UHGV virus genome: UHGV-0152919 | Origin: a virus | Direction: 5' to 3' (one strand) | Length of the DNA stretch: 39,527 bases | Part shown: one piece after another, positions 4,992-8,594 of the stretch | Layout of the letters: each line of letters opens with the position of its first letter | Numbering within the stretch: position 1 is the stretch's first letter | Notes under the pieces: generated by a model | Seen by the model: only the letters and a program-made list of their open reading frames with translations | Told to the model about the DNA's origin: nothing | Database searches by the model: none | Position numbers and translations under genes: made by a program

Positions 4992-5210
4992 TCAAAGTTC
5001 CGTATTAGCTTGTGCTTCGGTCATTTTTCCTAAGTATGAAGGAGGAAGGACTACGCAATTTGTATCCAGTCCCTCACCTATGGCAGCCTGTAAAATTCTG
5101 GCTAAGGTGAGTCTCTTGTTGCGATACCTGGTGATGACATGCCTGATACCGCCGGTCGGCGTAACAAAGGCGATCAGCCAGTAGTGATATTTCCGTCGGA
5201 ATGGCCACAT
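4992..5210 (-). CDS. small hypothetical protein (72 aa)
   Basis: ORF track; sits immediately downstream (minus strand) of the operator/terminator/operator element at 5225-5290. Confidence 0.4.
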   Translation of the reverse strand: MWPFRRKYHYWLIAFVTPTGGIRHVITRYRNKRLTLARILQAAIGEGLDTNCVVLPPSYLGKMTEAQANTEL

Positions 5211-5224
5211 AGTGCACCTTGTAG

Positions 5225-5241
5225 ATTGCTCTAATAAAAAA
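5225..5241 (+). promoter_or_regulatory. C1 operator-like site (attgctctaataaaaaa, 14/17)
   Basis: Motif match on plus strand; paired with an inverted copy at 5274-5290. Confidence 0.45.
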
Positions 5242-5266
5242 CGTGATGAGTGTACATCACGTTTTA
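5236..5266 (-). terminator. intrinsic terminator-like hairpin (8-bp stem acgtgatg/catcacgt) with T-run on the minus strand
   Basis: Inverted repeat 5241-5248/5255-5262 flanked by an A-run (plus strand), i.e. a T-run on the minus strand; downstream of gene 5292-5993. Confidence 0.45.
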
Positions 5267-5273
5267 AAAATAT

Positions 5274-5290
5274 GGAATTATTAGAGCAAT
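5274..5290 (-). promoter_or_regulatory. C1 operator-like site (minus strand attgctctaataattcc, 14/17)
   Basis: Motif match; abuts the stop codon of gene 5292-5993. Confidence 0.45.
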
Positions 5291-5291
5291 A

Positions 5292-5993
5292 TTATTCTGA
5301 TTCTCGCTCAAAAAATGAGCTGATAAGGGGAAGCCAATCCTCTGACACTTCGCGAGGTCGCGGTTTGCCGTGGAAAAAGATTATTCGGCAGTCTTTTGGT
5401 AATGCCCCATTCCCCCTGGAGTAACGCGCGCTCGCATATTTTGAACCAGGTTCCACAACATCGGCCTTGTAACTTACAAACCATCCTGGATACAGATCCT
5501 GAAATGCTGGTGTATCATCGCCCATAACCTTTCGTAAGAACCCCTGATCACCCCAGCATTCAGTAGTAACACAACGAGCAATCCAACCTTCCGGATCTTG
5601 CCAGAATGCACTCCAGATATGCGCTTTTACACTATTTGGTATCCACAGGGCACCGCTGCCACGATATTGTGGATGGTAAAAATCCCTAAGCATGGTGAAG
5701 CTGGTTGGTGGATGCTCTAGGATTGGGCGTATATCACCGGCAATAACCGTGTCCAAATCCAGATAGAACAGATCATCGGTTATATCCGGTCGGAACAACT
5801 CGATTTTCGCCCACCAGCCACGGCACTTTTGCCACTGGTTGATCAATGGGACAACTTTGACGCCAGGTACATGTAAACGCTTCAGGTCTGTCAGGCAAAT
5901 AATTTCATAGCCTTTTGGCAGTTGATTAACCAGCCACTGCACATCGGAAGCGTTATAGTCACCACCAGAGCGAAAAACTAAAGCAATCTTCAT
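5292..5993 (-). CDS. putative nucleotide-sugar (glycosyl)transferase-like protein
   Basis: 233 aa; YLDLDTV DxD-like motif and N-terminal Rossmann-like beta-alpha pattern; assignment tentative. Confidence 0.5.
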
Positions 5994-6682
5994 GCTGCAC
6001 CATCACCTTTCACTTTCATCAATGTCAGGTTTCCGCAAAATACGGCACCAGTGTCGATATACTGCTGATTCCAGAATGTCTTCGGGCTTTTCACCGGAGT
6101 GTGACCAAAGATAAAACGATCTGCGCCCGAAATTTCGCCACCAATATCATCCATCGAATCACTGATACGCTCGCGCGCCCAGACAACGTTGAAAAGCGGC
6201 ACCTCCTTACCGAATTGGTATTCATTATCCGGATAGTCGGCATGGGCTATAACGATAGTTTCTTGCCCCGTGTTCAACTCAATGATATAGGGCAGACGCT
6301 TTACCAGCTCCACCAGCGCCCAGGCTAATATTTCCTGATCAGTGTCCAGCATGAAGAACCATTGTCCGCCATTCATTAGCCAGTTATTCACGTTGCCATC
6401 TGGACTTAACGCATCAATCATCAGCCGCTCATGGTTCCCCATCACTGCCCTGAACCAGGGCATCTGCAATAGTTCCAGACATTCGACATTTTCAGTACCG
6501 CGATCGATAAGGTCGCCGACCGATATCAGTAAATCCTGCGCCGGGTCAAAATCCACACGATGGAGTTCGGACATCAGTCTGGTGTAGCAACCATGCAGAT
6601 CACCAACAACCCAGACATTCCTGTATTTGGTACCGTCGATACGGTGATAAATTGTGGGTGCCATCATGTATTCTTCAGCCAT
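5990..6682 (-). CDS. ppp: serine/threonine protein phosphatase, lambda-PPase type (P1 Ppp-like)
   Basis: GDLHG, GDLIDRG and GNHE metallophosphatase motifs; near-collinear with the lambda phosphatase sequence from memory ([15 protein letters not shown]...). Confidence 0.9.
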
Positions 6683-7290
6683 TCTTTAAGAGTCATCTGC
6701 GGAATACCTCCCATTTTCCCGCATGAAACAACGTCAATCTGTTCACGCGCAGACTGGAATAACAAAGGCAGGTGACTTAGATTTTTTGGCGTGCCGCCGG
6801 AGTGAACGCGTAGTTCTTGCGTAGCGTCAACGCCCACCAGAGCTACATGTTTGAATCCGATATGGAAAGCCAGGTTCAGAGCACCATATGCACTATTGCC
6901 GCTGGCAATTTCATTCTCATCTTCGCAAAGGCCGAAATGTGCGGACCAGCGCCACGCCCACCACTCGGGAGAATTCGTATTTTTTGGCTCCATGCCGCGT
7001 TCAGCCACACGACGGAAGCACAGAACGCCATCTCTGACTTCACGTTCTTTAACATCGGGTAGTGCCATGCAATAACAAACACCACGGCGACGGCGGCCAC
7101 GACCAACGCGCCGCATATTGTCTGGGGATGGATCAAGGGTGAAAAAATAAGAAGCGCGGTTAAGCCAGTCGATGGCCCCATTGACCGCTATAATCGGCAC
7201 TCCGCGCGGCGCAACAAAGTTTGCGGCGCTTGGGCCACTGCCGACGATAATAACGCGATCACTGCCTCTAAATTTATTCTTGGGAAACAT
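6664..7290 (-). CDS. Rossmann-like GSGPS-motif protein, paralog of the next gene (possibly MptE/DUF115-like)
   Basis: IIVGSGPS...IIAVN...[11 protein letters not shown]...VALVGVD motifs shared with the 7188-7850 product. Confidence 0.5.
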
Positions 7291-7850
7291 TGAATTGCAC
7301 TGCTCCTACTTGCATTCAAAATATGTAAATCTGCGTGTTTTTTGCGGGTATCCAGGAACTGCTGTTGCCATTTTGAAATAGACACCTGCGTTGGATTCCG
7401 TAGTGCTTGAGGGTGCGCGCCATGCCAATGAAGGCCGTTTTGCAGAGAACAGTCATAGCCGACTAATACCACTACTTCAGCCCCTGATTCAGCAGCCAGA
7501 CTGATAGCCTGCGCGCCGCTATTTACCCCTTCCGCCGGTCCACAATATCGCCTGTACTCCAACGAAAATGATTTCGCCGCCGCCAGGTTGGCTGTCACTT
7601 TGCGGAATCTCCCTCCCGGTATGGTGGATCCGTATTGCTTCCACCATGACAAATCACCGGCGTATAAGGCATAAATGTCATCGAACATCTGCCAGGAATT
7701 GTTAACCGCGATGATTGAACAGCCAGTTTTTTCTATAGCAGCACAGTCCTCACGAGTGAGTGACGGTCCGCTACCGACACAAAAAACAGTCCTAGTCGCC
7801 CTGGGTGGTATGTTCATTCTCAGCTGCAAATTCAGCCTCCAGGCGAGCAT
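7188..7850 (-). CDS. Rossmann-like GSGPS-motif protein, paralog of the previous gene
   Basis: FCVGSGPS...IIAVN...NSGAQAISLAA...VVLVGYD; start may be an internal Met; overlaps the downstream gene by ~100 nt. Confidence 0.5.
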   Translation of the reverse strand: MLAWRLNLQLRMNIPPRATRTVFCVGSGPSLTREDCAAIEKTGCSIIAVNNSWQMFDDIYALYAGDLSWWKQYGSTIPGGRFRKVTANLAAAKSFSLEYRRYCGPAEGVNSGAQAISLAAESGAEVVVLVGYDCSLQNGLHWHGAHPQALRNPTQVSISKWQQQFLDTRKKHADLHILNASRSSAIQCFPRINLEAVIALLSSAVAQAPQTLLRRAECRL

Positions 7851-7980
7851 TCATTTCAGCGATTACAGGGTCCACTACAGCATCTGTTTCCTGTTCATTA
7901 CGCGGCATGACCGATGCCAGCGACTCATAATTAACCTTGGATGACACGATTATTCTCCCGATGTTAAAGTGCACTACCAC
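7792..7980 (-). CDS. small acidic hypothetical protein (62 aa)
   Basis: ORF track only; overlaps the start of the next gene. Confidence 0.3.
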   Translation of the reverse strand: MVVHFNIGRIIVSSKVNYESLASVMPRNEQETDAVVDPVIAEMNARLEAEFAAENEHTTQGD

Positions 7981-8013
7981 AAAGAGCTTGCATGCACTAA
8001 TTAATTTATTATT

Positions 8014-8592
8014 TTAAGCAGCATGCAACCACTTATCGCCGTTCAATACTTGCTCAATAGCCTCACCCTTTTTAAGACTTATGTATTCCAGGATGGCGGT
8101 AATCGCTTGTTCTGCACCATACGCAAGAACAACGTAGTAGCCTTCCTCTCTAAGCCTGCGCATCCAGGCGATCTGCTCTTTCGTCGGGGCTTTACCATTT
8201 GGTTCTTTAAGCTCAATTCGCATGCCGTGATAAATACCGCATGCTTTATCGAGACTCATGTCCGGATAACCTTTTTTCTGCCCTTCAGCCTTCATTTTCC
8301 CGGCGGTTGCTTTTGAACGCTTCCCTCCGTTAGGCGTTGCATGCAACAGCTCATAGATGTCAGGGTGCTTGCGTTCGAAGTAATCAAAAATGAAAACCTG
8401 CTCGAAGTGCTCGCAATTTCCGTCGCGCAGGTCTGGGTTCTTTGCCAGTGCTGCAAGTGCCTTCGCATGTGGAGAAACTTCTTTTACCGGCGCAAGCGAT
8501 AAGAATGGATCCTTTTTGGTTTTTGGCCTGGACCGCCCCTTATTTCGACGCTCACTAAAAGCCTGAAACTCTTCCTCAGTAAAGCGCAACAT
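8014..8592 (-). CDS. VRR-NUC domain nuclease (PD-(D/E)xK fold)
   Basis: GYPDMSL...IELKEPNGK...Q motif pattern characteristic of VRR-NUC. Confidence 0.7.
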   Translation of the reverse strand: MLRFTEEEFQAFSERRNKGRSRPKTKKDPFLSLAPVKEVSPHAKALAALAKNPDLRDGNCEHFEQVFIFDYFERKHPDIYELLHATPNGGKRSKATAGKMKAEGQKKGYPDMSLDKACGIYHGMRIELKEPNGKAPTKEQIAWMRRLREEGYYVVLAYGAEQAITAILEYISLKKGEAIEQVLNGDKWLHAA

Positions 8593-8594
8593 AA

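What the first reader, a model, noticed from the sequence alone, without database searches (positions are those of the whole stretch)
6664..7850. Tandem overlapping paralogs with a GSGPS nucleotide-binding motif
Both products share (I/F)(V/C)VGSGPS, IIAVN and NS..A..LA....G...V.LVG(Y/V)D, indicating an ancient duplication. One copy carries an Arg-rich insertion ([12 protein letters not shown]). The motif pattern resembles MptE/DUF115-like nucleotide-sugar transferases, a family not classically tied to phage biology. The reading frames overlap by about 100 nt.
Basis: inference. Interest (0 to 1): 0.55.

Follow-up and report, generated by a model that had tools for sequence, protein, structure and literature searches.

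The report
Phage P1 paired sugar-transferase genes pmgO/pmgP
Two overlapping genes of the classic phage P1 (pmgO and pmgP, long labelled 'putative morphogenetic') are ancient duplicates of a small sugar-transferase-like enzyme. With the neighbouring gene pmgQ they form a three-enzyme cassette, conserved in many phages of Gram-negative bacteria, that most likely attaches sugars to a protein; the target is not yet identified.

Summary
The window is a P1-like phage, 99.2% identical to P1, and the two ORFs are the annotated genes pmgO (7188-7850, minus strand) and pmgP (6664-7290, minus strand), which overlap by 103 nt.

- **Paralogy.** Pairwise BLASTP detects only the N-terminus (E=0.003). Family profiles align over almost their full length (hhalign 98.1%, E=1.2e-13).
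- **Cassette.** The pair nearly always occurs with PmgQ, a GT8-like DxD glycosyltransferase. This holds in prophages and phages of alpha-, beta- and gamma-proteobacteria and Bacteroidota. It is backed by natural O-P, P-Q, Q-P and Q-P-methyltransferase fusions.
- **Accessory genes.** Methyltransferase, sulfotransferase and extra glycosyltransferase genes are inserted in the cassette.
- **Location.** In 11 of 30 loci it lies just downstream of the major capsid gene. In some bacterial chromosomes it lies among adhesin genes.

Best reading: a cytoplasmic protein-glycosylation cassette, probably acting on virion proteins and possibly drawing on host CMP-Kdo. Donor and acceptor are inferred, not shown. 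P1 knockouts have no plaque phenotype. The genes are known; their function is not.

The parts
7188..7850 (-). pmgO (220 aa). A minimal DUF115/Maf/GT42-fold enzyme and the first member of the paralogue pair. Met12 at 7817 is a possible alternative start.
   Evidence: - ORF and P1 annotation.
- phrog_4603 at 4e-74, and PF01973 sub-threshold at 5.7e-5.
- AF2 model with pLDDT 85.6.
- Family invariant residues G28 P29 S30 N50 D66 S111 G112 G131 D133 H141 H143.
6664..7290 (-). pmgP (208 aa). The second paralogue, more conserved than PmgO, with a ~40-residue insertion relative to PmgO.
   Evidence: - ORF and P1 annotation.
- phrog_2111 at 3e-132.
- AF2 model with pLDDT 93.3.
- Foldseek: MptE HPPK 6e-4, Cst-I/II about 1e-2.
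- Family invariant residues N37 D53 N132 S133 G153 D155 H173.
7188..7290 (-). The 103-nt pmgO/pmgP overlap. pmgP is in the -1 frame relative to pmgO.
   Evidence: - Sequence.
- Every adjacent O->P pair in 9 loci overlaps by 4-133 nt.
- In the four enterobacterial loci examined (window, L087, L088, L003) the pmgP ATG sits across the Cys codon of PmgO's CF(P/Q) motif.
7761..7775 (-). GSGPS motif of PmgO (residues 26-30).
   Evidence: It aligns with GNGPS of the sialyltransferase Cst-II in the HMMER alignment.
7228..7242 (-). GSGPS motif of PmgP (residues 17-21), encoded inside the overlap.
7452..7523 (-). Second shared motif of PmgO, NSG...LVGYD (residues 110-133).
   Evidence: It aligns with Cst-II ITSG...LSGID.
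6826..6897 (-). Second shared motif of PmgP, NSA...LVGVD (residues 132-155).
7078..7113 (-). Arg-rich loop of Pmg[13 protein letters not shown] (residues 60-71).
   Evidence: In the family alignment R61, R68 and V71 are at least 90% conserved and Y73 is invariant. The P1 clade carries two extra residues.
5292..5993 (-). pmgQ (233 aa). A GT8-like DxD glycosyltransferase and the third core member of the cassette.
   Evidence: - phrog_1962 'glycosyltransferase'.
- The family profile hits GT8 structures: AgtA 7e-6 and glycogenin 2e-4.
- DLDT and FHGxPRP motifs.
- Co-occurs with PmgP in 25 of 28 viral loci and in all 27 PmgP-bearing phage records.
5990..6682 (-). ppp, a NinI/lambda-type Ser/Thr phosphatase inserted between pmgP and pmgQ. 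It is found there only in P1-like phages.
   Evidence: Metallophos 9e-16 and phrog_246. It is absent from the cassette outside P1-like loci.
7792..7947 (-). pmgN (51 aa as annotated), the first gene of the operon. It overlaps pmgO by 59 nt.
   Evidence: It is found only in P1-like loci.
7991..8007 (+). C1 repressor operator Oppp (Op83), placed by transferring the P1 record's annotation (AF234172). The predicted promoter PpmgN lies at about 8020-8046.
   Evidence: Annotation of AF234172 mapped onto the window, using window = locus L001 + 999.

Best explanation
pmgO and pmgP are anciently duplicated, single-domain enzymes of about 200 aa. They have the DUF115 (PF01973) / Maf / GT42 sialyltransferase fold. 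Together with the GT8-like PmgQ they form a soluble, cytoplasmic three-enzyme glycosylation cassette.

Proposed mechanism, with the status of each step:
1. The two paralogues each keep the nucleotide-sugar-binding constellation: GxGPS, the AVN asparagine, an acidic residue, NS(G/A), and GxD. They diverge after the GxD motif (HWHGxH in PmgO, NLSHLP in PmgP), so they probably catalyse two different transfers. Motif conservation is shown; activity is inferred.
2. By analogy with every characterised glycosyltransferase of this fold, the donor is a CMP-activated ulosonic acid. No sugar-nucleotide synthesis genes were seen beside the cassette in the annotated loci. The only such donor available in E. 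coli K-12, and in Gram-negative hosts generally, is CMP-Kdo. This step is inferred.
3. PmgQ adds an alpha-linked hexose from a UDP-sugar. This is inferred from its similarity to GT8 enzymes.
4. In other phages, methyltransferases, a sulfotransferase or extra glycosyltransferases tailor the glycan. Gene content is shown; function is inferred.
5. The acceptor is most likely a protein made late in infection, probably a virion surface protein. This is inferred from gene position.

The overlap and the chain of overlapping genes (pmgN/O/P/ppp/Q) most simply provide translational coupling, so that the partners are made together.
For: **Homology and fold**
- Paralogy: hhalign 98.1%, E=1.2e-13.
- PmgP model: MptE, then Cst-I/II.
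- PF01973 hits on many homologues, one of them above Pfam's cut-off.

**Cassette**
- O, P and Q co-occur in 18 species-level genome loci spanning alpha-, beta- and gamma-proteobacteria and Bacteroidota. A Longimicrobiales locus has P and Q only.
- In 28 diverse viral contigs, Q is present in 25 and O in 24.
- In deposited phages, all 27 PmgP-bearing records also carry PmgQ.
- Natural fusions: O-P (P0051), P-Q (P0179, P0252), Q-P (P0262), Q-P-methyltransferase (P0228), methyltransferase-P (P0263).
- PmgQ is GT8-like.
- Of the 15 ORFs inserted inside the cassette, most are sugar-tailoring types: 4 class-I and 2 FkbM methyltransferases, a sulfotransferase, a GT2 and a nucleotide-diphospho-sugar transferase.

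**Acceptor**
- In 11 of 30 loci a major capsid gene is among the two ORFs just upstream.
- Head-completion, connector or gp10-like genes were scored in 16 of 57 downstream ORFs.
- In Pseudescherichia and Serratia chromosomes the cassette genes are interleaved with Big_1 / inverse-autotransporter adhesin genes.
- All operon proteins are soluble, with no transmembrane segment.

**Donor precedent**
- Maf enzymes, which have the same Pfam domain, put Kdo from the host CMP-Kdo pool onto Ser/Thr of flagellin in E. coli BL21 (bioRxiv 10.1101/2020.06.03.131540; PMC11339370, abstract).
- Every host seen so far is Gram-negative.
Against: - No biochemical data exist for any member. No glycosylated P1 protein is known.
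- P1 pmgO, pmgP, ppp and pmgQ are dispensable for plaque formation.
  - The deletion study reports 24 of 29 knockouts without a plaque or anti-restriction defect. It does not name these genes in its main text (PMC9024508).
  - The CRISPRi paper's table lists all four as nonessential and cites that study (PMC10695390).
- PmgO and PmgP were not among the newly virion-associated Pmg proteins in the P1 proteome. This is expected for enzymes, and the authors did not look for glycans.
- The P1 proteins themselves score below Pfam's PF01973 threshold.
- Sequence similarity to Cst-II and WaaZ is not significant (hhalign 6-16%).
- The same fold also houses pyrophosphokinases (MptE, thiamine pyrophosphokinase).
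- The cassette is not always in a structural module.
  - In EP_H11 it lies among small genes that are all annotated 'hypothetical protein', with no recognisable structural gene nearby.
  - In some lambdoid prophages it lies next to the lysis genes.
- Catalytic residues could not be mapped by superposition.
Confidence: 0.55

Rival explanations
1. The cassette remodels host LPS or another lipid-linked glycan. PmgO and PmgP would act like WaaZ (a Kdo III transferase), and PmgQ like the GT8 core glycosyltransferases WaaO/WaaJ, at the cytoplasmic face of the inner membrane. This would change the LPS core, which is the P1 receptor. The effect would be to limit superinfection or to stop progeny adsorbing to cell debris.
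For: - Faint WaaZ similarity:
  - TIGR04437 at E=0.1 on the PmgP N-terminus.
  - A Pfam WaaZ_KDO_III 'faint' hit on the O-P fusion.
  - hhalign against E. coli WaaZ at E about 2e-3, colinear over the C-terminal half.
- PmgQ belongs to the same broad GT8 group as WaaO/WaaJ, and the profile hits LgtC weakly.
- All hosts carry LPS.
- That the P1 receptor is the LPS core is established knowledge; it was not tested here.
Against: - The hhalign probabilities are only 14-16%, and the TIGR04437 score is 11.9 bits against a cut-off of 200.
- The best structural match is a protein O-glycosyltransferase, Maf.
- The best PDB matches of PmgQ (AgtA, glycogenin, then a GT8 entry, 5gvv) are mainly GT8 enzymes that build glycans on proteins rather than LOS enzymes (the substrate classes are my own knowledge).
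- The proteins have no membrane anchor.
- In P1 the operon sits behind a C1 operator, so it is off in lysogens.
- PmgP stays more than 50% identical across hosts that presumably have very different LPS cores.
- The cassette sits between capsid and connector genes, or among adhesin genes.
Confidence: 0.17
2. PmgO and PmgP are small-molecule pyrophosphokinases or kinases, like MptE or thiamine pyrophosphokinase, rather than glycosyltransferases.
For: - The top Foldseek hit of PmgP is M. jannaschii HPPK/MptE (6e-4).
- The Pfam family is named after MptE.
Against: - PmgP is obligately linked, and sometimes physically fused, to a GT8-like glycosyltransferase and to methyl- and sulfotransferases typical of glycan tailoring.
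- No pterin or thiamine pathway genes lie nearby in any locus examined.
Confidence: 0.07
3. They are structural or morphogenetic virion proteins, as the historical names imply (pmg = putative morphogenetic; hdm = head morphogenesis in P7). The enzyme-like fold would have been co-opted for a non-catalytic role.
For: - P1 and P7 annotations.
- The PmgO homologues of PAJU2 (ORF010) and Eowyn are annotated 'structural protein'.
- The genes lie in head-neck gene clusters.
Against: - The deletions are reported as nonessential (citing PMC9024508), and these proteins are not among the virion-associated Pmg proteins of the P1 proteome.
- The residues that are invariant across phyla are the nucleotide-sugar-site motifs, not surface patches.
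- The families also occur in non-phage adhesin islands.
- The basis of the PAJU2 and Eowyn labels could not be checked.
Confidence: 0.05
4. The cassette glycosylates phage DNA, as a base hypermodification that protects against restriction.
For: Phage glycosyltransferases that hypermodify DNA are known (bioRxiv 10.1101/2023.12.21.572611, listed).
Against: - No hydroxymethylase, TET-type dioxygenase or other base-activating gene accompanies the cassette in any locus.
- P1 DNA is not known to be glycosylated (established knowledge).
- The deletions did not change anti-restriction activity.
- The fold is that of CMP-ulosonic acid transferases.
Confidence: 0.03

Closest known systems
Maf (motility-associated factor) flagellin nonulosonic-acid O-glycosyltransferases, e.g. 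Magnetospirillum magneticum Maf, PDB 5mu5. Their central domain is PF01973/DUF115.
   Same: - Same Pfam domain.
- Cytoplasmic, soluble enzymes that act on a protein destined for a surface structure.
- Maf enzymes can use host CMP-Kdo in E. coli.
   Different: - PmgO and PmgP are 208-220 aa, catalytic domain only. Maf is about 630 aa with flanking N- and C-terminal domains.
- No flagellar gene context.
- They come as a diverged pair plus a GT8-like partner.
- Sequence identity is about 16%.
- Activity is untested.
GT42 sialyltransferases Cst-I and Cst-II of Campylobacter jejuni (PDB 2p56, 1ro7).
   Same: - N-terminal G(N/S)GPS motif and the (T/N)SG...G(I/Y)D motif align.
- PHROG and RefSeq already label PmgO 'alpha-2,3-sialyltransferase'.
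   Different: - Sequence similarity is not significant: hmmsearch E=0.2 and hhalign probability 6%.
- The equivalent of catalytic His188 is unresolved.
- E. coli K-12 makes no CMP-Neu5Ac, so the database name is almost certainly wrong as to donor.
- Cst enzymes act on lipooligosaccharide.
MptE, the archaeal 6-hydroxymethyl-7,8-dihydropterin pyrophosphokinase (PDB 8sd5).
   Same: - Eponym of PF01973.
- Similar size, about 215 aa.
   Different: - A kinase chemistry.
- No pterin pathway context here.
- PmgO and PmgP are linked or fused to glycosyltransferase and sugar-tailoring genes.
WaaZ (GT73), the Kdo III transferase of the E. coli K-12 LPS core.
   Same: - Would use the donor proposed here, CMP-Kdo.
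- Faint, colinear similarity over the C-terminal half.
   Different: - Far below family thresholds.
- A lipid-linked acceptor.
- A single enzyme within the waa operon.
Virion glycosylation in mycobacteriophages (Che8-type glycosyltransferases acting on capsid and tail-tube proteins).
   Same: Phage-encoded cytoplasmic glycosyltransferases that decorate virion proteins. This is the kind of system proposed here. It is cited only from my own knowledge and from titles.
   Different: Different enzyme families and Gram-positive-type hosts. Glycosylation there was shown experimentally, whereas here it is only inferred.

Membership tests
Pfam PF01973 (MptE-like / DUF115 / Maf_flag10) | Whole-protein score at or above Pfam's gathering cut-off of 34.6 bits. 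| tested here: not met
   PmgO scores 23.4 bits and PmgP 20.9 bits, matching only the last ~35 model positions.
Pfam PF01973 (MptE-like / DUF115 / Maf_flag10) | Family-level link: close homologues are recognised by the model over most of its length. | tested here: met
   - Many PmgO- and PmgP-family proteins carry precomputed PF01973 hits.
- P0215 scores 44.1 bits over model positions 15-166 of 171. Several other PmgP relatives score 20.8-27.7 bits over similar spans.
Pfam PF01973 (MptE-like / DUF115 / Maf_flag10) | The three-dimensional fold of solved members (Maf 5mu5, MptE 8sd5). | tested here: met
   - PmgP: Foldseek probability 1.00 to 8sd5.
- The models are confident, with pLDDT 85.6 and 93.3.
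Maf flagellin glycosyltransferases | Three-domain architecture of about 600 aa, with N- and C-terminal helical domains flanking the GT domain. | tested here: not met
   PmgO is 220 aa and PmgP 208 aa. Only 165 residues align, against a 632-residue target.
Maf flagellin glycosyltransferases | Location in flagellar glycosylation or nonulosonic-acid biosynthesis loci. | tested here: not met
   About 60 loci were examined. The contexts are phage head or lysis modules, or adhesin islands. None is flagellar, and none carries pse/leg/neu genes.
Maf flagellin glycosyltransferases | Catalytic acidic residues (E324 and D415 of M. magneticum Maf) and a conserved Ser. | tested here: inconclusive
   Both families have invariant acidic residues (PmgO D66 and D133; PmgP D53 and D155) and an invariant Ser (S111; S133). 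Their structural equivalence to the Maf residues could not be checked, because no residue-level superposition output was available.
CAZy GT42 (Cst-I / Cst-II sialyltransferases) | Significant sequence similarity to GT42 members. | tested here: not met
   - The PmgO profile against PDB gives E=0.2. The PmgP profile gives no hit at E<=10.
CAZy GT42 (Cst-I / Cst-II sialyltransferases) | Modified GT-A (single Rossmann) fold with an N-terminal GNGPS nucleotide loop. | tested here: met
   [not shown]
CAZy GT42 (Cst-I / Cst-II sialyltransferases) | A CMP-Neu5Ac donor and the catalytic base His188. | not testable with these tools
   The donor needs biochemistry. The low-confidence alignment places His188 near PmgO's NxSR motif. 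Conserved His residues exist (PmgO H141, H143, H146; PmgP H173), but their role is unknown.
WaaZ / GT73 (NCBIfam TIGR04437, Pfam PF27901) | Score above the equivalog cut-off of 200 bits. | tested here: not met
   11.9 bits at E=0.1 on PmgP residues 8-43 only. hhalign probability against E. coli WaaZ is 14-16%.
MptE-type pyrophosphokinase (function) | ATP-dependent pyrophosphoryl transfer, within a pterin or thiamine pathway context. | tested here: not met
   The context part was tested: there are no pathway genes, and glycosyltransferase, methyltransferase and sulfotransferase partners are found instead. The activity itself is not testable here.
CAZy GT8 (for the partner PmgQ) | DxD motif and a C-terminal HxxGxxKPW-type motif, with sequence similarity to GT8 enzymes. 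| tested here: met
   - D79 and D81 (DLDT) and H208 are invariant, and FHGxPRP is nearly invariant.
- The profile against PDB gives AgtA 6.9e-6, glycogenin 1.7e-4, 5gvv 2e-3 and LgtC 0.13.
- Pfam PF01501 itself is only marginal, at E=0.18 in 2 of 15 members.

The most novel reading that the evidence does not exclude
Phage P1 and many other phages of Gram-negative bacteria decorate a virion protein with a short Kdo-containing glycan; some bacterial islands may do the same to adhesins. In some lineages the glycan would be methylated or sulfated. It would be built from the host's CMP-Kdo pool by two minimal Maf-like transferases (PmgO and PmgP) and a GT8-like hexosyltransferase (PmgQ).

This would be the first natural Ser/Thr-O-Kdo protein glycosylation. 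It would also be the first virion-glycosylation system described for Gram-negative phages.
Probability: 0.2. Interest if true: 0.85.

Novelty: new variant of a known kind. Interest (0 to 1): 0.55.

Why it matters
P1 is one of the most used phages in genetics, yet the operon pmgN-O-P-ppp-Q has carried the placeholder label 'putative morphogenetic function' since the genome paper.

- **What this work provides.** It shows that O, P and Q form a conserved glycosylation cassette. The cassette is spread over myo-, sipho- and jumbo phages of Gram-negative hosts, and also over some bacterial adhesin islands. This gives the operon a concrete hypothesis that can be tested at once, because the single-gene deletions already exist.
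- **If the acceptor is a virion protein.** Virion glycosylation would extend from mycobacteriophages to Gram-negative phages. That bears on phage immunogenicity, stability and therapy.
- **If the donor is CMP-Kdo.** It would reveal a protein modification so far seen only as a promiscuous side reaction of Maf enzymes.
- **As tools.** The roughly 200-aa enzymes would be attractive minimal scaffolds for glyco-engineering.
- **If wrong.** The result still corrects the database name 'alpha-2,3-sialyltransferase', and it flags missed or split ORFs in several phage records.

Tried and rejected
1. **Pairwise BLASTP.** It gave only a 36-residue N-terminal match, so family profiles were needed.
2. **Other libraries.** NCBIfam and PADLOC gave nothing meaningful. 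An anti-defence-system assignment was dropped.
3. **First IMG/VR scan.** It returned only near-identical P1 copies and was useless for context. I repeated it with a distant family member placed first in the query alignment.
4. **afdb50 fold library.** It was not available, so the PmgP model could not be compared with an AlphaFold WaaZ model.
5. **WaaZ and Cst-II single sequences against the profiles.** Probabilities were 5-16%. This is too weak to assign a family or to map the catalytic His.
6. **Programmed -1 frameshift fusing PmgO to PmgP.**
   - pmgP is in the -1 frame, and the overlap contains A_AAT_TTA and T_TTC_CCA heptamers in the pmgO frame.
   - AAATTTA is not conserved in relatives, and TTTCCC(A/T) is dictated by the Cys-Phe-Pro codons.
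   - A heptamer of this form is expected by chance about 0.13 times in 100 nt.
   - I rejected it as unsupported.
7. **Ser/Thr-rich C-terminal extension on neighbouring capsid proteins** (the mycobacteriophage pattern). None was found.
8. **Literature searches.** Searches for pmgO/pmgP function, for DUF115 or MptE in phages, and for capsid glycosylation in Gram-negative phages found no functional study.
9. **PAJU2 'structural protein' label.** Its basis could not be traced.
Full report
**What is there.** The window is a P1-type phage (Punavirus). Positions 5000-8700 are 99.2% identical to phage P1 and 98.0% to P7.

The finding's coordinates are exactly two minus-strand ORFs, 7188-7850 (220 aa) and 6664-7290 (208 aa). 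These are the annotated P1 genes pmgO and pmgP, called hdmB and hdmC in P7. They lie in the operon pmgN-pmgO-pmgP-ppp-pmgQ, which follows a C1 repressor operator (Op83/Oppp). Neighbouring genes in the operon overlap by 59, 103, 19 and 4 nt.

**Check of the observation.** All quoted motifs are present. The only slip is a one-residue spacing error in the long motif.

- Pairwise BLASTP detects only the N-terminal 36 residues (E=0.003).
- I collected homologues of each protein (51 and 328 hits) and aligned 34 and 37 of them (A1 and A2).
- The two profiles align over 161 columns, almost end to end, with probability 98.1% and E=1.2e-13.
- Each protein also cross-hits the other's PHROG family.

The duplication is therefore real. 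It is also old, because both paralogues are separately conserved in hosts from different phyla.

The Arg-rich stretch (PmgP residues 60-71) is not an insertion. It is a conserved basic loop (R61, R68, V71, Y73) that is two residues longer in the P1 clade. The true insertion relative to PmgO is the roughly 40 residues that follow, including the SPEWWxWRW motif.

**The overlap.** The pmgP ATG lies within the codons CAA TGT (Gln-Cys) of PmgO's conserved C-terminal 'CFP' motif, with an AGGAG 12 nt upstream.

Constraint is partitioned within the overlap. The first half encodes the conserved PmgO C-terminal helix and the unconserved PmgP leader. The second half encodes the conserved PmgP GSGPS strand and an unconserved PmgO tail.

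All nine adjacent O->P pairs examined overlap, by 4-133 nt, and eight have P in the -1 frame. The ATG-inside-the-Cys-codon arrangement is shared by the enterobacterial loci examined. More distant members have ordinary 4-13 nt coupling overlaps. I read this as translational coupling. A programmed frameshift is not supported.

**What the proteins are.** AlphaFold models built from the family alignments are confident, with pLDDT 85.6 and 93.3.

- PmgO by Foldseek: Maf is the top hit.
- PmgP by Foldseek: MptE first, then Cst-I/II.

At the sequence level the P1 proteins fall below Pfam's PF01973 threshold. Many relatives carry the domain, and one passes the cut-off over nearly the whole model.

Both paralogues keep the same constellation: GxGPS, the AVN asparagine, an Asp, NS(G/A), and GxD. 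They differ after GxD, with HWHGxH in PmgO and NLSHLP in PmgP. This suggests two active enzymes with different acceptor or linkage specificity. No transmembrane segment is predicted in any operon protein, and PmgO and PmgP are basic, with pI 9.3-9.5.

**The pair is part of a three-gene cassette.** PmgQ was previously unassigned in Pfam. It has invariant DxD (DLDT) and a nearly invariant FHGxPRP motif. Its family profile hits GT8 structures: AgtA 6.9e-6, glycogenin 1.7e-4, 5gvv and LgtC.

Co-occurrence of O, P and Q:
- Species-representative genomes: 18 loci, including Enterobacterales, Zhongshania, Microbulbifer, Methylophilaceae, Brevundimonas, Sinomicrobium (Bacteroidota) and a Longimicrobiales MAG.
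- Diverse IMG/VR contigs: 28 loci, with PmgQ in 25 and PmgO in 24. The three loci lacking PmgQ end within about 1.4 kb downstream of pmgP.
- Deposited phage genomes: PmgO in 73 records, PmgP in 27 and PmgQ in 32. All 27 PmgP records also hit PmgQ.

Gene order varies (O-P-Q, O-Q-P, Q-P). Ppp is inserted only in P1-like phages.

An exhaustive profile search found 573 PmgP-family clusters. Among them are natural fusions, which I confirmed with my own HMMs and Pfam:
- O-P: P0051
- P-Q: P0179 and P0252
- Q-P: P0262
- Q-P-methyltransferase: P0228
- methyltransferase-P: P0263
- P plus a second DUF115-like domain: P0290 and P0301

ORFs inserted inside the cassette are mostly class-I or FkbM methyltransferases. 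There is also a carbohydrate-type sulfotransferase, a GT2 and a nucleotide-diphospho-sugar transferase. This is the gene content of a glycan-building and glycan-tailoring pathway. It is not that of a kinase or a structural module.

**Where the cassette sits.** I took a Pfam census of the two ORFs on each side in 30 non-redundant loci.

- Upstream: HK97-type major capsid protein in 11 ORFs, portal in 4, ClpP protease in 2, Rz-type lysis proteins in 2-3.
- Downstream: head-completion protein in 7, gp6-like connector in 5, HK97 gp10-like in 4, tail-completion protein in 3.

Explicit examples:
- Pseudomonas and Gilvimarinus prophages: terminase-portal-ClpP-capsid-[O][P][Q]-connectors.
- Phage D3: the PmgO homologue directly follows the capsid gene.
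- Some lambdoid prophages: the cassette lies between the Q antiterminator, the lysis genes and terminase.
- EP_H11 (111 kb): it lies among small genes all annotated 'hypothetical protein'.
- Pseudescherichia chromosomes: no phage genes were called in the 18.6-kb locus shown, and O, P and Q are interleaved with inverse-autotransporter/invasin Big_1 adhesin genes.
- Serratia plymuthica: PmgO precedes two Big_1 proteins.
- Two further loci: a Q-P pair abuts chaperone-usher fimbrial operons.

The common theme is proteins that end up on an exposed surface, such as capsids, adhesins and perhaps fimbriae. This is the logic of Maf, which glycosylates flagellin in the cytoplasm before export.

**Mechanism proposed.**
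- Shown: paralogy; fold; the conserved nucleotide-sugar motifs; obligate linkage and fusion with a GT8-like enzyme and tailoring enzymes; positional linkage to capsid and adhesin genes.
- Inferred: PmgO and PmgP transfer a CMP-activated ulosonic acid; PmgQ adds a UDP-hexose; the acceptor is a protein.

CMP-Kdo is the obvious donor for three reasons. No sugar-nucleotide synthesis genes were seen beside the cassette in the annotated loci. All hosts seen are Gram-negative. CMP-Kdo is the only CMP-ulosonic acid in E. coli K-12.

There is a direct precedent. Maf enzymes expressed in E. coli BL21 O-link Kdo from the host pool onto flagellin Ser/Thr (bioRxiv 10.1101/2020.06.03.131540; PMC11339370).

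My graded confidence is:

| Claim | Confidence |
|---|---|
| Paralogues | >0.95 |
| Glycosyltransferase-type enzymes | ~0.8 |
| Joint glycan-building cassette with PmgQ | ~0.75 |
| Protein acceptor | ~0.5 |
| Virion protein acceptor in P1 | ~0.35 |
| CMP-Kdo donor | ~0.3 |

**What argues against.** There is no biochemistry for any member and no known P1 glycoprotein.

- The P1 deletion study reports that 24 of 29 single-gene knockouts had no plaque or anti-restriction defect. Its main text does not name these genes (PMC9024508).
- The CRISPRi paper lists pmgO, pmgP, ppp and pmgQ as nonessential and attributes the same result to that study (PMC10695390).
- PmgO and PmgP are not among the Pmg proteins found in the virion proteome. 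This is compatible with enzymes.
- The fold also houses pyrophosphokinases.
- Similarity to Cst-II and WaaZ is not significant.
- An LPS-core-remodelling role cannot be excluded. It would pair a WaaZ-like enzyme with a GT8 enzyme, as in the waa operon.

**Known or new.** The genes are known and annotated. PHROG and RefSeq already call PmgO an 'alpha-2,3-sialyltransferase', a name that is almost certainly wrong as to donor.

I found no paper describing any of the following:
- the O/P paralogy
- the O-P-Q cassette
- its fusions
- its linkage to capsid and adhesin genes
- any function

I therefore rate it a new variant of a known kind: minimal, paired Maf/GT42-fold transferases in a phage-borne cassette. 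Interest is moderate. It would be high if virion or Kdo-protein glycosylation is confirmed, and the existing P1 deletion mutants make that directly testable.

Noticed in passing
window 7792-7980 (pmgN) and 7792-7850 (overlap with pmgO): pmgN (51-62 aa, acidic, pI 4.2) overlaps pmgO by 59 nt and occurs only in P1-like loci. CRISPRi knock-down of pmgN scored as essential, although its deletion is viable (PMC10695390). This could be a polar or regulatory effect on the operon. The pmgO start is also uncertain: neither ATG 7850 nor Met12 at 7817 has a clear Shine-Dalgarno sequence.
   Followed up: partly
window 7263-7287 (inside the pmgO/pmgP overlap): Two X_XXY_YYZ heptamers, T_TTC_CCA and A_AAT_TTA, lie in the pmgO frame, with pmgP in the -1 frame. 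On paper a -1 slip would produce an O-P fusion like the natural fusion P0051. AAATTTA is not conserved in relatives, and the other heptamer is forced by the Cys-Phe-Pro codons, so this is probably chance.
   Followed up: yes
window 5990-6682 (ppp): A lambda NinI-type Ser/Thr phosphatase is inserted between pmgP and pmgQ. This is seen only in P1-like phages (and in D6 as an isolated gene). Whether it acts with the glycosylation cassette is unknown.
   Followed up: partly
L095:7280-7561, L105:8154-8552, L113:5061-5354, L121:421-702, L125:4651-4935, L130:5258-5596: In several HK97-like prophages a small ORF (94-133 aa) lies between the major capsid gene and the PmgO homologue. It has a short N-terminal domain (weak DUF7210 and phiKZ gp35 decoration-protein hits) and a disordered Pro/Ala/Ser/Thr-rich tail with motifs such as SASPAG. 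It is a possible decoration protein and a candidate glycan acceptor.
   Followed up: partly
L004:2014-4404, L099:7274-9604, L191:6738-9616: Enterobacterial chromosomes carry a recurring arrangement, holin - PmgQ - PmgP - lysozyme - DUF2514 (spanin-like). It resembles a lysis-cassette-derived (type 10-like) secretion module. In Serratia it lies next to lipase, lipoxygenase and Big_1 protein genes.
   Followed up: no
L189:1241-14359 (Pseudescherichia chromosome): PmgO, PmgP and PmgQ homologues are interleaved with four Big_1/invasin-type genes, including a 1166-aa inverse autotransporter. No phage genes were called in the 18.6-kb locus. The layout of the three cassette genes recurs in five Pseudescherichia or related genomes (L089-L093).
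   Followed up: partly
L107:5691-6409 (phage D3 orf6.5/orf7); L194:7001-7603 (phage EP_H11): These look like annotation errors in public records.
- D3 orf6.5 and orf7 appear to be one continuous PmgO-like ORF (5813-6409, 198 aa).
- In EP_H11 the PmgP homologue is not annotated at all, probably because it overlaps its neighbour.
   Followed up: partly
L108:4974-5543 (PAJU2 ORF010); L110:4998-5570 (Klebsiella phage Eowyn): PmgO homologues are annotated 'structural protein'. In D3, PAJU2 and Eowyn, PmgO is not accompanied by PmgP and PmgQ. Its neighbours are instead a 275-296-aa protein (phrog_6804 in D3) and a ~205-aa protein that is a methyltransferase in D3 (phrog_6564). I checked the PHROG and Pfam assignments only for D3. 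This would be a second type of cassette. The basis of the 'structural' label could not be traced.
   Followed up: partly
window 8014-8592 (pmgM): PmgM, also labelled 'putative morphogenetic', has a VRR-NUC / Holliday-junction-resolvase-like C-terminal domain (Pfam 3e-4; phrog_5702 at 5e-27). It is therefore more likely a nuclease than a structural protein.
   Followed up: no
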